From a virus (Duplodnaviria; Heunggongvirae; Uroviricota; Caudoviricetes), in IMG/VR virus record IMGVR_UViG_2531839200_000013: a DNA stretch of 5,944 nucleotides. The stretch is one strand, 5' to 3'. A program made the position numbers. Below are positions 1 through 3,000 of this stretch, in pieces. Positions within the stretch are counted from its first letter, which is position 1, and each line of letters begins with the position of its first letter.

Positions 1-3000
1 ATTACAGATTTAAGGGTGAACAAATCCCTGCCATTGCTGGCATATAAGAATGAAATCGGATGTTTATTACGGAACTGTTTTAAAGACCTGCCGGGATTTC
101 GTTATTATCCTGGTGAATAACTTTATCGACAGGGTAACAGTTACCGGGAATTTTCTGTTCGGTTGCTGCAGTCACACACTCCTGCATTGTCCTGTGAACA
201 CTGACTGCAATATCAACTGGCTCTCCGGAAACAAGAAAAACTGTCAGAACAAGTGCAAATGCTGTATTCATTGCCAGCATCCTTTTTGTATCGGACGTAA
301 ACGGGCCAGCATTGAAAGAATGCATATTTTATTTAATAACTCCCGTTCGTGTTTTCTCTTGTTAATGGCATCTTCAGTAAATACAGGGTTACTGATAGTG
401 ACACCAATTTCAAAACAACCTTCAGACGTATTAACGTTTGGTAATAACGTTTCCATTATCGCGTCCTCAACAATGAATTTTGTGATGCGGTGCCTGGTGC
501 CTCCAGGTGACGTTAACCAGTTAACAATTAACGCCGGATACAGAGAATCCACCCATAACACTGTTTTTAGCTTTAACTGTTCCGCGTGCGCTTAGCCGCA
601 TTCACTGCATCACAAAATTCACTTTAAAAAGGGCGGACATCAGTTCATGGGCAAACAGATGCCGCCAAACGTCACCAGAAAATTGATAACAGAGGGCGTT
701 GCAGCGGGGTTGTCACTTAAGCGTATGGTCAACCTGACAACCCGGTGTCCTCAACGGGGAAGGAATAACCCCGCCATACTTACCGCTGCGCCATTTCGCG
801 GAGTGCCACAACCGGAAGCGCACGGTCGACGAAAATTTAACGACAGGCTATCTATGAACCAGCAACCTCGCCGTGCGCTTTCGCGTTATGCTCTGACTTT
901 TCAGAGAAATATCCTTTCAGTAAACTGTCAGTGCCGGATGTTCACCCGTGTCCGGCGCACGCACTCCACTTCACCCGTGGAGAACTCCTTAATTACCAAC
1001 CCTCAGGAGGGTGAATGTTAAAATCAACTCTTATTGCTAAATGCCTTTATCAAAATCGCATGGTAAGCAGCATTTCAATAGGCGAGTCTGCAGTTAAAAG
1101 TATTTTCGAAGAGTACTTTCCCGGGCATGATTTTAATAAATGGAATACCAAATTACCGCCAGCAGTTTCAACGCGTATTCTGAAAGCAACCGAAAGAGCA
1201 AGTACAATTCGCGTTAACTATTTCATTAAAGATTTGTGGGATCTTTGATATCCACAGAGCCTAAAGTATGTGCATATGGATGTGCTATTATGCGCCCTCG
1301 CAGATTTGCATCATTTTCTAAATTCACTGAACGAAACAGGGCATCAACAAGGCTCTGTACAATGCAAAGGCAATCGAAGACTGTCGCCGTTTCTGTTTTG
1401 ATTGATGAAAGAACATGGCCATTCACGCAAACAGAAATTACCCGTTTATTAACATCGCTTTCCTGCTTTTGATTATCAGAACCATATAGCCCAGAAAAAG
1501 CATTGCGCACATTACGAACCATATTATCGATGGTTTCTTTTTCTGCGGTACTAAGGTCAAGAGTAGCCAGTTGTGAACGAACTATATTCGATGCCATTTC
1601 CTGTAATGGCGTTGGTAAATCTTTAAATTCCATTATTAGCCTCGTTGGTTAGCTATTAACGTGGGTATGTAATCATTCTGGCAATGCTTAATGCCGCTGC
1701 TTTTTCCAGATTGGTGATATCCTGCTCCAGAGCGGACAGATTTTCAGCCTGCTTAGCCCTGGCTTCATTGGCCCATTTCAGGTCCTGCACCGCCTTAATT
1801 TTCTGGTGCATCCACTCATAAAGTTCATCATCGGTATAGTCTGGCGCGATGATGACGGGGTCTCGTTTCTGCATGTCGGCTCCTTGTGGTTAGCGTTGCC
1901 TGCTTTTTAACCACGTCAGGCGAGGTGGTATCCTCTGAGGGGTCTGTTACTCGAGAGGAAATTGGTTATGAATACAATCAAGTTTTCTTGCCCAGAATGT
2001 GGTGGCTAAGTCTTTGACACATCCTTTAAGCCGCAGGGCTCTGACAGTTTCGCGGGAGCCATCTGCAAAAATTGTGGTCACCTTGTAACTGAAGATGAGT
2101 CCTCGCAGTTCGATGACGAAATCGTTGACAATATCTTCGGTGCACTCACCAGAGACTTTCTGAAGTAAAGGCGCATACCGCTTAGTTACCGCTCTGATAA
2201 CTCTTACCTGTCCGGCAATGGCGCTGATATCAATATAAAGCGCCATCGCTGTTTCTTTGCTGATCCCTGGACGCCTTCCATTCTGATGTTTGACTTCGCC
2301 CACTGAGAAATCCTCTGCTTCCCCTTAACGCCGGGTAGCGGAACTGTTTGCTGAGAACACCGTGCGGTGTCTTGATGAGTAGAATTTAGAATAGCCTAAG
2401 AGTTATGGTCAAGCTTTTTGTGTAGAAAAACCTAAGCTTCTTGATGTAAAAAACACAAGTATTTGAAAGTTTGTGCTTTTTATTACAGAGAGTTGCGAAA
2501 AAAAGGGGGGTTATTTATTTGCGCTTCTTTTGCGAGCTTTGAGTAGTTCTTCAAAAAGTTTGTTGAAATTCTCAACTCGAGCACGCATCTCTGACAACAG
2601 AGCCTTTTGCTCTGACTCAGGCAGTGCGTCGAACAGTTGAAGCAACTCTTTTTGATCTTCTGTCAGATTGACTGGCTGATTATCTGGGATCGGTTCGCCT
2701 GGTTGCTTATCTTCATCTCCAAAAAGAAGCCAAGTCGGCGAGCACTGAAGCGCCTGGCTCAGTGCGAATAATCTCTTCCCCGCTGGCTGTGTTTCATCTC
2801 TTTCCCATTGAGAAATTGTTACGTGAGCCACTTTGACCAGCTTACCTAATGCGGCCTGAGACAGTTTTAATTTTTTTCGCCTGTATAAGAGGCGAGCACC
2901 GAAGGTTTCGTTTTTCATATTAGGTAATTCTAATTTTTCTTGACTTAGGTTTCTCTACGATCTAGTTTCCTTAGGAAAATCTAAGGGGTTCGATATGTTG

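What the first reader, a model, noticed from the sequence alone, without database searches (positions are those of the whole stretch)
682..1014. Hairpin-dense GC-rich leader with a duplicated TTCACCCGTG hairpin module and no credible ORF
The region has five or more perfect stems of 5-9 bp. Two of them (933-956 and 964-982) carry the same 10-nt sequence TTCACCCGTG, which looks like a duplicated structural module. The only long ORF here (647..1021, +) is arginine/proline-rich, has no RBS and overlaps DicF antisense, so the region is better explained as structured RNA. In K-12, DicF is released from the operon transcript by RNase III and RNase E; these hairpins are candidate processing determinants. 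A separate structured RNA, or the promoter for the antisense 77-aa ORF, is also possible.
Basis: partly seen in the sequence, partly recalled or inferred. Interest (0 to 1): 0.45.

Follow-up and report, generated by a model that had tools for sequence, protein, structure and literature searches.

The report
Structured leader of the DicF RNA
This stretch is not a protein gene but the folded, untranslated RNA in front of the prophage small RNA DicF (read on the opposite strand); part of it is an already known cutting signal, but its core is a conserved, knotted RNA domain that appears undescribed and whose job is unknown.

Summary
The hairpins, the 10-nt repeat, the GC richness and the unconvincing ORF are all real. 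The window is an E. coli O157:H7 lambdoid prophage. Positions 682-1001 are about 96% identical to the K-12 Qin ydfC-dicF untranslated region, and the functional strand is minus, the dicF strand.

K-12 experiments show that this region is cut by RNase III, giving a 190-nt DicF species, and by RNase E, giving the 53-nt DicF. Those two (933-956, 964-982) are lineage-specific, have variable loops and show no covariation.

The new part is 698-812. It is a 115-nt four-way junction with a pseudoknot, and covariation and G·U asymmetry support the minus-strand RNA.
- It forms the 5' body of the 190-nt RNA.
- It precedes every DicF copy examined (120 of 120).
- It is always followed 39-82 nt later by an intrinsic terminator (83 of 83 variants), with at least 10 different sRNA-like segments in between.
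- It also sits just after the repressor-controlled early promoters of P1 (Pban) and of other prophages.
- It has no Rfam match.

Its function is unresolved. A carrier and processing domain is most likely, and termination control is the main rival.

The parts
626..680 (-). DicF sRNA copy with its intrinsic terminator. It is adjacent to the finding and downstream of it in RNA sense.
   Evidence: Rfam RF00039 match at 680..631, 43.5 bits, E = 3e-7, below the gathering score of 48 because the terminator loop differs from K-12. dicB (268-456) and ydfD follow on the same strand.
681..697 (-). AU-rich linker (GCCCUCUGUUAUCAAU|U). By homology with K-12 it holds the RNase E site that creates the 5' end of the 53-nt DicF.
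   Evidence: The sequence is identical to the K-12 sequence shown in Fig. S1 of PMC10448788. RNase E dependence of the 53-nt species is reported there. The cut was not mapped in this strain.
698..812 (-). Module A, a conserved 115-nt four-way junction with a pseudoknot. P1 is 812-805/705-698. P2 is 801-797/790-786. The pseudoknot is 779-774/728-723. P3 is 773-769/759-755, with a pyrimidine-rich loop at 768-760. P4 is 743-735/715-707.
   Evidence: Covariance model R1 scores 135.8 bits at 696-814 on the minus strand, and this is the only copy in the window. 95.4% of pair cells are standard pairs, against 34-55% when partners are slid. 11 pairs change on both sides, against 6.4 in shuffles. The pseudoknot was not in the model and is 99% paired, with a UA/UG/CG series. 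G·U cells number 166 against 45 A·C cells. There is no Rfam or tRNA match.
807..890 (-). Hairpin B, a long imperfect stem of about 19 consensus pairs with a variable tip. It is the inferred RNase III substrate. Its basal 6 bp (890-885 with 812-807) use the 5' strand of P1 of module A.
   Evidence: RNAalifold consensus on 44 distinct sequences. All variation is one-sided and wobble-compatible, 99.2% of cells are paired, and G·U cells number 49 against 2 A·C cells. The 190-nt RNase III-dependent DicF species in K-12 places the cut about 137 nt upstream of DicF, near window 817. That position is inferred from length only.
891..906 (-). Hairpin C (CUCUGA-AAAG-UCAGAG), weakly conserved.
   Evidence: Some homologues show CUCUGA/UCAGAG changing to CCCUGA/UCAGGG, but the commonest variant (CCCUGA/UCAGAC) breaks two pairs.
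933..956 (-). Hairpin D, a 6-bp stem with a 12-nt loop that carries one copy of the 10-mer.
   Evidence: The stem is invariant. At least 9 loop variants occur among 62 distinct sequences, including GGAUAAGAA, which lacks the repeat. Absent from homologues whose similarity ends at 890.
964..982 (-). Hairpin E, a 6-bp stem with a 7-nt loop that carries the second copy of the 10-mer.
   Evidence: Present only in homologues that reach 1001 or beyond. It is broken in the class whose similarity ends at 979. There are 8 loop/closing variants in 42 sequences. One homologue (L045) has lost the 29 nt between the repeats.
983..1001 (-). The 5' end (in RNA sense) of the block shared with K-12. It contains AAGGAG. 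In K-12 the ydfC stop codon lies about 20 nt further upstream.
   Evidence: The blast boundary lies at window 1001 in K-12 and most genomes.
1002..1014 (+). Junction with a lineage-specific insertion. It carries the Shine-Dalgarno sequence (AGGAGG, 1005-1010) of the plus-strand 77-aa ORF 1015-1248.
   Evidence: Read from the sequence. The ORF matches phrog_10348, function unknown. It is annotated as hypothetical in RefSeq and is absent from K-12.
647..1021 (+). A 124-codon open frame, not a gene.
   Evidence: No Pfam or PHROG family. The frame is interrupted in 23 of 46 distinct homologues by 1-3-nt length differences or stops. It lies antisense to DicF and module A.

Best explanation
Positions 682-1014 are the untranslated, minus-strand RNA immediately upstream of dicF. 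They lie in the repressor-controlled early-left ('dicBF') operon of a lambdoid prophage. The region is a mosaic of four kinds of element.

(1) 891-1001 holds lineage-specific hairpins C, D and E. I infer that they mainly keep a long untranslated stretch folded, which makes it a poor Rho and exonuclease substrate and may give a protective 3' end to the upstream mRNA fragment.

(2) 807-890 is a long, conserved stem. RNase III cuts it, which creates the 5' end of the roughly 190-nt DicF species. This is shown in K-12 and inferred here.

(3) 698-812 is a conserved four-way junction with a pseudoknot, called module A here. It forms the body of that 190-nt RNA.

(4) 681-697 is an AU-rich linker. RNase E cuts it to release the 53-nt DicF, which ends at its own terminator.

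My preferred mechanism for module A is a cis-acting carrier domain of a modular phage RNA. A compact, nuclease-resistant 5' fold sits next to an exchangeable single-stranded 'seed' and a terminator. The fold makes the 190-nt form a stable reservoir and fixes where RNase E releases the sRNA.

In Qin-type prophages the unit is excised from a long mRNA by RNase III. In P1 it is apparently made directly from the C1-controlled promoter Pban.

Shown: homology, structure and covariation, strand, invariable linkage to a terminator, genomic contexts, and the K-12 processing data. Inferred: the cleavage positions in this strain, and any function of module A.
For: Identity and synteny:
- 100% identical to O157:H7 chromosomes and 94-96% identical to K-12 Qin over 620/682-1001.
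- The gene order is repressor, ydfC, [leader], DicF, dicB, ydfD, exonuclease.

Literature:
- The 190-nt species depends on RNase III and the 53-nt species on RNase E. Both accumulate in stationary phase (PMC10448788).
- 53 + 17 + 115 + about 5 nt gives 190 nt, so the 190-nt RNA is module A plus DicF.

Hairpin B: a consensus stem of 19 pairs, 99.2% of cells paired, and only wobble-type changes.

Module A structure.

Linkage and conservation:
- 120 of 120 DicF sites have module A ending 60 nt or less upstream.
- 83 of 83 distinct downstream variants have a hairpin plus U-run 39-82 nt after the module.
- Across 10 lineages with different downstream segments, the module is 85% identical. The flanks are 55% and 54% identical.

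P1: the curated annotation places a 'dicF-like region' just downstream of the C1-controlled promoters P1ban and P2ban. The predicted primary transcript to the terminator is about 180 nt.

Non-coding.
Against: - No processing site was mapped in this strain. The RNase III position is inferred from the length of the K-12 product only.
- A simple stabilising or processing role does not explain why loop and junction nucleotides of module A are nearly invariant. A plain hairpin would be enough for that role, so a specific partner is likely but unidentified.
- The 53-nt DicF alone is active when expressed from a plasmid (PMC5069750). The module is therefore not needed for DicF action itself.
- Covariation is limited by high sequence identity, and the A4 alignment was fitted to the model.
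- Both collection scans used fixed words from the module, so invariance at those words is partly ascertainment.
- Single-sequence folding of the window's 190 nt is not exceptional (z = -1.65).
Confidence: 0.72

Rival explanations
1. Module A (698-812) is a cis-acting transcription-elongation element. The nascent folded RNA acts on RNA polymerase, as HK022/HK639 put RNA or Bacillus EAR do. It would set how much transcription reads through the DicF-type terminator just downstream, and through later terminators. That would set the balance between a short sRNA and expression of dicB/kil, the recombination genes or (in P1) the tRNAs and ban.
For: - It is always followed by an intrinsic terminator 39-82 nt away, whatever the intervening sequence.
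- It always lies in operons controlled by the immunity repressor, upstream of early genes: about 35 nt after the P1 Pban start, about 280 nt after a TTGACA-16-CATAAT promoter in a CPS-53-type prophage, and downstream of a DicA-like repressor gene and upstream of kil in phage pPE4.
- No N-like gene is annotated in these operons.
- Near-invariant loops and junctions fit binding to a conserved host machine.
- Both terminated (1,146-nt) and read-through (1,608-nt) transcripts exist in K-12.
- Its size and pseudoknot recall EAR (my own knowledge, not tested).
Against: - It is not homologous to put. Model R1 finds nothing at the annotated HK639 putL-like RNA, and the architecture differs.
- There is one copy per phage, whereas HK022 has putL and putR.
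- Termination at the DicF terminator is evidently efficient enough to make the 53-nt and 1,146-nt species the main products. That is not what a strong antiterminator placed just upstream would give.
- No functional data exist.
Confidence: 0.2
2. Module A is a riboswitch-like sensor: an aptamer whose expression platform is the downstream terminator.
For: A conserved, pseudoknotted multi-helix domain next to highly variable terminator sequences is the usual riboswitch layout.
Against: - There is no match to any of the 4,227 Rfam families.
- No conserved mutually exclusive pairing between the module and the terminator was found. In 10 of 11 variants the module and the terminator fold independently in the minimum-energy structure.
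- The segment between them is a functional sRNA seed in DicF.
- No metabolic gene is linked to the element.
Confidence: 0.06
3. The released 5' fragment (about 137 nt, from the RNase III cut to the RNase E cut) is itself a trans-acting RNA. It would use the pyrimidine-rich P3 loop (UCCUU/CUCC, resembling the anti-Shine-Dalgarno sequence) to pair with ribosome-binding sites, or it would titrate a protein.
For: - P3 is the most variable helix, yet its loop keeps a UCC/CUCC motif across lambdoid and P1 types.
- The domain is more conserved than the sRNA it precedes.
Against: No target was identified and no evidence shows that the fragment accumulates. The loop motif is short.
Confidence: 0.1
4. 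The functional strand is plus. The region would then be the 5' leader or promoter of the 77-aa ORF (1015-1248), or an antisense RNA to the dicF precursor, or the ORF 647-1021 would be translated.
For: The plus strand also folds well (z = -3.0). A strong Shine-Dalgarno sequence precedes ORF 1015.
Against: - The same sequence is conserved in K-12 and thousands of genomes that lack the 77-aa ORF.
- G·U pairs on the minus strand would be A·C mismatches on the plus strand: 166 against 45 in module A and 49 against 2 in hairpin B.
- All neighbouring genes in every context are on the minus-equivalent strand.
- No plus-strand promoter consensus lies in 560-1300 upstream of the ORF.
- The frame of ORF 647-1021 is not conserved.
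Confidence: 0.03

Closest known systems
E. coli K-12 Qin ydfC-dicF untranslated region and the 190-nt DicF species (Faubladier et al. 1990; Ragunathan et al. 2023, PMC10448788)
   Same: Orthologous sequence: 96% identity over window 682-1001, with the same gene order. The same hairpin B, module A, linker and DicF seed are present.
   Different: This copy has a 77-aa/135-aa gene pair inserted between ydfC and the leader. Its DicF terminator loop is different, and P2 carries a C·A mismatch. The published work maps the processing but, in the texts I could read, does not describe a conserved fold in the 137-nt extension.
The 'dicF-like region' of phage P1, downstream of the C1-controlled ban promoters (annotation of AF234172)
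   Same: It contains module A (92.7-101 bits with R1) followed by a short single-stranded stretch and a strong terminator. It is controlled by the immunity repressor.
   Different: It lies about 35 nt from the transcription start, so no RNase III hairpin is needed. The outer helix P1 is not evident. The downstream segment is unrelated to DicF in sequence. tRNA genes and ban follow.
put RNAs of HK022 and HK639 (RNA-mediated processive antitermination)
   Same: They are cis-acting folded RNAs in the leaders of early operons of lambdoid phages that lack N, and they lie upstream of terminators (PMC9378689; HK639 annotation).
   Different: put is two stem-loops of about 70 nt, whereas this is a 115-nt four-way junction with a pseudoknot. 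There is no similarity by covariance model. No functional evidence exists here.
sRNAs derived from 3' UTRs or from inside operons and released by RNase E (CpxQ, SroC and others; review PMC9438474)
   Same: The sRNA shares a terminator with an upstream mRNA and is released by RNase E. DicF is the founding example.
   Different: Those sRNAs are not preceded by a conserved autonomous structured domain shared across different sRNAs.
RNase III site in the phage lambda N leader (my own knowledge)
   Same: A long hairpin in the early-left leader of a lambdoid phage is cleaved by RNase III.
   Different: There is no sequence relation. In lambda the cut modulates N translation, whereas here it creates the 5' end of an RNA species.

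Membership tests
dicBF-operon leader / 190-nt DicF precursor (K-12 Qin type) | Sequence homology to the K-12 ydfC-dicF intergenic region | tested here: met
   96.3% identity over 320 nt to K-12 records. The boundary lies at window 1001.
dicBF-operon leader / 190-nt DicF precursor (K-12 Qin type) | Position between ydfC-type genes and dicF-dicB-ydfD, on the dicF strand, downstream of a DicA/cI-type repressor gene | tested here: met
dicBF-operon leader / 190-nt DicF precursor (K-12 Qin type) | RNase III cleavage giving a species of about 190 nt, and RNase E cleavage giving the 53-nt DicF | not testable with these tools
   Shown for K-12 only. Here the conserved 19-pair stem at 807-890 and the identical linker are consistent with it.
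DicF RNA (Rfam RF00039) | Match to the covariance model at or above the gathering score | tested here: not met
   Nothing inside 682-1014. The adjacent copy at 680..631 scores 43.5, below 48. The finding region is therefore not DicF itself.
put antiterminator RNA (HK022/HK639) | Sequence or structure relatedness to put (two stem-loops of about 70 nt with a conserved core) | tested here: not met
   Model R1 gives no match at the annotated HK639 putL-like RNA, 34187-34312, at E up to 10. Rfam has no put family, so its silence says nothing. HK022 putL and putR themselves were not compared.
put antiterminator RNA (HK022/HK639) | Promotes terminator read-through in cis through RNA polymerase | not testable with these tools
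   Only the position is suggestive: it is promoter-proximal in P1 and in the CPS-53 type, and always upstream of a terminator.
Transcriptional riboswitch | A conserved aptamer followed by a terminator, with a conserved alternative (antiterminator) pairing | tested here: inconclusive
   Adjacency is met in 83 of 83 variants. No conserved alternative pairing was seen, and 10 of 11 variants fold independently. No Rfam family matches.
tRNA or tRNA-like gene | A cloverleaf recognised by tRNA finders or models | tested here: not met
   ARAGORN finds no genes. The Rfam tRNA model hits only the genuine P1 tRNAs.
N-utilisation (nut) site | A boxA consensus next to a boxB hairpin | tested here: not met
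   No YGCTCTTWA within 1 mismatch inside 682-1014 on either strand. The window-wide count is at chance level.
Protein-coding gene (ORF 647-1021, +) | A reading frame conserved in homologues, a family match and a ribosome-binding site | tested here: not met
   The frame is broken in 23 of 46 homologues. There are no Pfam or PHROG hits.

The most novel reading that the evidence does not exclude
Module A (698-812) is a previously unrecognised class of phage regulatory RNA. It would be a pseudoknotted four-way-junction domain that binds a host machine. The most interesting candidate is RNA polymerase, as a third kind of RNA antiterminator or termination governor after put and EAR. It would decide, at the terminator that follows it, between making a short toxic sRNA with an interchangeable seed and transcribing the downstream early genes. 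It is shared by lambdoid prophages and P1-like phage-plasmids.
Probability: 0.2. Interest if true: 0.8.

Novelty: new variant of a known kind. Interest (0 to 1): 0.5.

Why it matters
DicF is one of the oldest known bacterial sRNAs. It matters for cell division, metabolism and EHEC virulence, yet it has been treated as a 53-nt RNA with a 'long UTR' in front.

The analysis here indicates that the real genetic unit is a two-part RNA of about 180-190 nt. Its 5' domain is more conserved than DicF itself. That domain is shared with at least nine other terminator-ending segments of different sequence. It is present in about 80% of complete E. coli genomes and in P1-type plasmids.

If the domain is a carrier or processing module, it explains how prophages swap sRNA seeds while keeping biogenesis constant, and it offers a natural scaffold for engineered sRNAs. 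If it controls termination, it would be a new RNA-based switch governing the expression of toxic early prophage genes.

Either outcome can be tested directly with simple mutants.

Tried and rejected
- Rfam scans of the window and of related loci found only DicF, STnc100, C4, isrK and tRNAs, and nothing over 682-1014.
- ARAGORN found nothing.
- The exact-pattern scan of genome contigs with a DicF word returned mostly chance matches in unrelated MAGs. Only Escherichia and Shigella hits were real.
- For the put hypothesis I fetched HK022 (22-30 kb only; the put sites were probably not included) and the whole of HK639. Model R1 had no match at the annotated putL-like RNA.
- The boxA search was at chance level.
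- The promoter and terminator consensus scan of 560-1300 found no plus-strand promoter for the 77-aa ORF. It also missed the DicF terminator because of its long loop.
- Pfam, PHROG and PADLOC scans of the neighbouring small ORFs gave families of unknown function only.
- The inverted repeat 704-718/760-774 (I1) was rejected as a helix. It competes with P3 and P4 and is not maintained in the P1-type sequences.
- The RNAalifold consensus on A1 chose the pseudoknot helix as a nested stem and paired one column wrongly. It was replaced by the explicit pseudoknot model.
- The riboswitch-style test for alternative pairing was inconclusive.
- A 10-codon minus-strand ORF from the loop of hairpin E to the loop of hairpin D, and a 9-mer shared with the dicB Shine-Dalgarno region, were considered. 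Both are left as unproven coincidences.
- Faubladier & Bouché 1994 and the P1 genome paper could not be read. Earlier remarks there on conservation upstream of dicF cannot be excluded.
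Full report
**Where the window comes from and how it is oriented**

The window is 100% identical to E. coli O157:H7 chromosomes. RefSeq annotation of that locus, the ORF list and Rfam show a lambdoid prophage immunity region. The early-left operon runs on the minus strand of the window.

In transcription order the features are:
- a cI/DicA-type repressor (2511-2918)
- small ORFs, including ydfC (1656-1874) and a 135-aa ORF (1226-1633)
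- the finding region
- DicF (680..631; 43.5 bits, E = 3e-7)
- dicB (268-456)
- ydfD

A 77-aa ORF (1015-1248) lies on the plus strand.

**Checking the observation**

TTCACCCGTG occurs exactly twice, at 941-950 and 970-979. That compares with 0.27 expected, and 4 of 200 shuffles reached two. Positions 682-1014 fold better than shuffles on both strands, with z = -3.0 and -3.5. The region is a GC island, at 0.55-0.57 against about 0.4 in the flanks.

The 10-mer lies entirely in the loop of hairpin 933-956. In hairpin 964-982 it spans loop and stem. It is therefore a sequence repeat rather than a duplicated structural unit.

**The region is not coding**

ORF 647-1021 (+) has no Pfam or PHROG match. 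Its frame is interrupted in 23 of 46 distinct close homologues, which differ in length by 1-3 nt.

**What the region is homologous to**

Window 620-1001 matches thousands of E. coli genomes. 4,427 of 5,426 complete genomes have a match to 682-1014, and almost none of the matches carry any annotation. In K-12 the match is the 340-nt gap between ydfC and dicF in the Qin prophage, at 96% identity.

Similarity ends at discrete points in different lineages: 890, 961, 979, 1001 and 1015. So the leader is a mosaic of modules. The block from 1002 onward, with the 77-aa and 135-aa ORFs, is an insertion relative to K-12. The region is therefore not, in evolutionary terms, the leader of the 77-aa ORF. 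No plus-strand promoter consensus was found.

**What is already known about this region**

[quoted passage not shown] In K-12 a 190-nt DicF species depends on RNase III and the 53-nt species depends on RNase E. Both accumulate in stationary phase, and no internal promoter was found (PMC10448788; review PMC9438474).

Counting back 190 nt from the DicF 3' end puts the RNase III cut near window 817. That lies in the 3' arm of a long hairpin at 807-890.

On 44 distinct homologues this hairpin has a consensus stem of 19 pairs and a hypervariable tip. All changes are one-sided and wobble-compatible, 99.2% of cells are paired, and there are 49 G·U cells against 2 A·C cells. This is what an RNase III substrate read from the minus strand should look like.

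It attaches to a different hairpin from the two that were emphasised.

**The two flagged hairpins**

Hairpins D (933-956) and E (964-982) have invariant stems and so give no covariation evidence. Their loops are variable. D has at least nine loop variants in 62 sequences, including GGAUAAGAA, which lacks the repeat. E has eight variants in 42 sequences.

The shared 10-mer, as CACGGGUGAR, is kept in both hairpins in 22 of 42 sequences that have both. E is absent or broken in whole homology classes. One homologue has precisely the 29 nt between the repeats deleted. Hairpin C shows a little compensation but is broken in the commonest variant.

I read these hairpins as lineage-specific accessory structure. 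They may protect the 3' end of the upstream mRNA fragment and keep a long untranslated stretch folded against Rho. That is inference only.

**The conserved core, module A (698-812, minus strand)**

A 97-123-nt sub-block recurs in other contexts: a CPS-53-type prophage without DicF, and P1-like phage-plasmids. I collected variants with two fixed-word scans, one of IMG/VR and one of metagenomes, and aligned them.

The alignment shows a four-way junction:
- P1: GUUGUGGC/GCUGCAAC, 812-805/705-698
- P2: 801-797/790-786
- P3: 773-769/759-755, with a pyrimidine-rich loop
- P4: 743-735/715-707
- a pseudoknot between GUAUGG (779-774) and CCAUAC in the P4 loop (728-723)

On the MAFFT alignment, 94.6% of pair cells are standard pairs, against 34-57% when the partners are slid. 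There are 30 double-change cells, against 6.5 in shuffles.

On a covariance-model alignment of 84 distinct sequences the figures are:
- 95.4% of pair cells are standard pairs
- 11 pairs change on both sides, against 6.4 in shuffles (4 of 500 shuffles reach this)
- 58 double-change cells, against 10.0 in shuffles

This alignment is fitted to the model, but the pseudoknot was not part of the model. The pseudoknot is 99% paired and shows a UA/UG/CG series.

G·U cells outnumber A·C cells by 166 to 45. In most sequences P1 has two adjacent G·U pairs that would be mismatches on the plus strand. The RNA is therefore the minus strand.

The window holds one copy, at 135.8 bits. No Rfam family, tRNA model or boxA consensus fits it.

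**What always accompanies module A**

Every DicF site examined has the module ending 60 nt or less upstream (120 of 120). Every one of 83 distinct downstream sequences has a hairpin plus U-run starting 39-82 nt after the module.

Between the module and the terminator there are at least ten unrelated 'seed' segments, of which DicF is only the commonest. Across those ten lineages the module is 85% identical, whereas 80 nt upstream and 70 nt downstream are 55% and 54% identical.

The contexts all lie on the same strand as the early genes:
- In P1 the curated record annotates a 'dicF-like region' directly after the C1-controlled promoters P1ban and P2ban. The predicted transcript to the terminator is about 180 nt, and tRNAs and ban follow.
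- In a CPS-53-type prophage the module is about 280 nt after a TTGACA-16-CATAAT promoter that follows the repressor gene.
- In phages pPE4 and F1055 it lies between the repressor gene and the kil or recombination genes.

The known '190-nt DicF' is therefore best seen as the full-length form of a two-domain phage RNA. In Qin-type prophages RNase III cuts it out of a long mRNA. In P1 it is probably made directly from Pban.

The basal six pairs of hairpin B use the same GUUGUG as P1 of the module. Cleavage of B may therefore allow P1 to form. This is inference.

**How it most likely works**

The processing scheme for the region as a whole rests on K-12 experiments plus orthology, and I hold it with good confidence. 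For module A I commit to a cis-acting carrier and processing domain. In this view a compact 5' fold stabilises the 190-nt reservoir and fixes the RNase E release site next to an exchangeable seed.

The weak point of this view is that such a role does not require near-invariant loops and junctions. A specific partner is therefore likely.

The main rival is control of termination or antitermination at the adjacent terminator, working like put or EAR. It fits the position in repressor-controlled early operons without an N gene, and the invariable terminator. It is weakened by three things: efficient termination at DicF in vivo, the absence of any relatedness to the HK639 putL-like RNA, and the single copy per phage.

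A riboswitch reading lacks a conserved alternative pairing. A trans-acting role for the released fragment, through its UCC-rich P3 loop, is possible but untested.

**Novelty**

The finding as written is already known biology: a structured dicF leader that carries processing signals. A discrete, covarying pseudoknotted domain that is shared by DicF, other sRNA-like cassettes and P1 was not found in Rfam. A full-text search for its most conserved sequence also found nothing. Two older papers could not be read. I therefore rate it a new variant of a known kind, of moderate interest.

Noticed in passing
window 1968-2168 (+): A zinc-ribbon-like ORF (MNTIKFSCPECGG*VFDTS...CKNCGH...) has an in-frame TAA at 2005-2007. 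It looks like a pseudogene and lies antisense to the RefSeq 'hypothetical protein' at 1947-2246 (-), which may therefore be a mis-call.
   Followed up: partly
window 3729-5222 and 5256-5944: There are signs of prophage decay. The replication gene is split (RefSeq pseudogene). An ORF at 5256-5636 has an in-frame TAG after codon 17. An IS3-family transposase C-terminal fragment (5647-5937, -) runs off the window.
   Followed up: partly
window 1015-1248 (+) and 1226-1633 (-): A convergent gene pair overlaps by 23 nt and is inserted between ydfC and the DicF leader relative to K-12. The two ORFs match phrog_10348 and phrog_1363, both of unknown function, with no Pfam or PADLOC hit.
   Followed up: partly
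window 747-755 and 463-471: The 9-mer GTCCTCAAC occurs twice. On the minus strand it reads GUUGAGGAC, in junction J3/4 of module A and in the dicB Shine-Dalgarno region 6 nt before the AUG. Both copies are kept about 285 nt apart in most DicF-type loci. One shared 9-mer between a 115-nt module and a 6-kb window is roughly what chance gives, so any significance is unproven.
   Followed up: partly
window 974-942 (-): A 10-codon frame runs from GUG in the loop of hairpin E to UGA in the loop of hairpin D, encoding MKWSACAGHG, with AAGGAG 10 nt upstream. The two copies of the repeat supply the start and the stop. The start is lost in GGGUCAG variants and the stop in GGGUGCG variants.
   Followed up: partly
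window 437-642 (-): The dicF-dicB spacer gives a sub-threshold match to Rfam STnc100 (32.5 bits against a gathering score of 47, E = 2.5e-4). The same match appears downstream of DicF in other loci and about 1.4 kb downstream of module A (beyond the tRNA genes) in the P1-like plasmid locus L041.
   Followed up: no
L286 3088-3263 ('Actinobacillus' phage vB_Apl-pPE4): The sRNA-plus-terminator unit after module A is tandemly duplicated, including the last 11 nt of the module. The phage otherwise looks like an E. coli lambdoid (DicA, YdaT, Kil, exonuclease VIII), so the stated host may deserve a check.
   Followed up: no
L022 2162-2350 (E. coli ECMA0423): In one prophage, DicF is followed on the same strand by isrK and C4 antisense RNA matches, giving a cluster of three phage RNA families.
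   Followed up: no
L054 4669-4811: A P1-type module A carries a G-rich insertion of about 23 nt, including a run of 11 G, inside hairpin P3. It still scores 83 bits.
   Followed up: no
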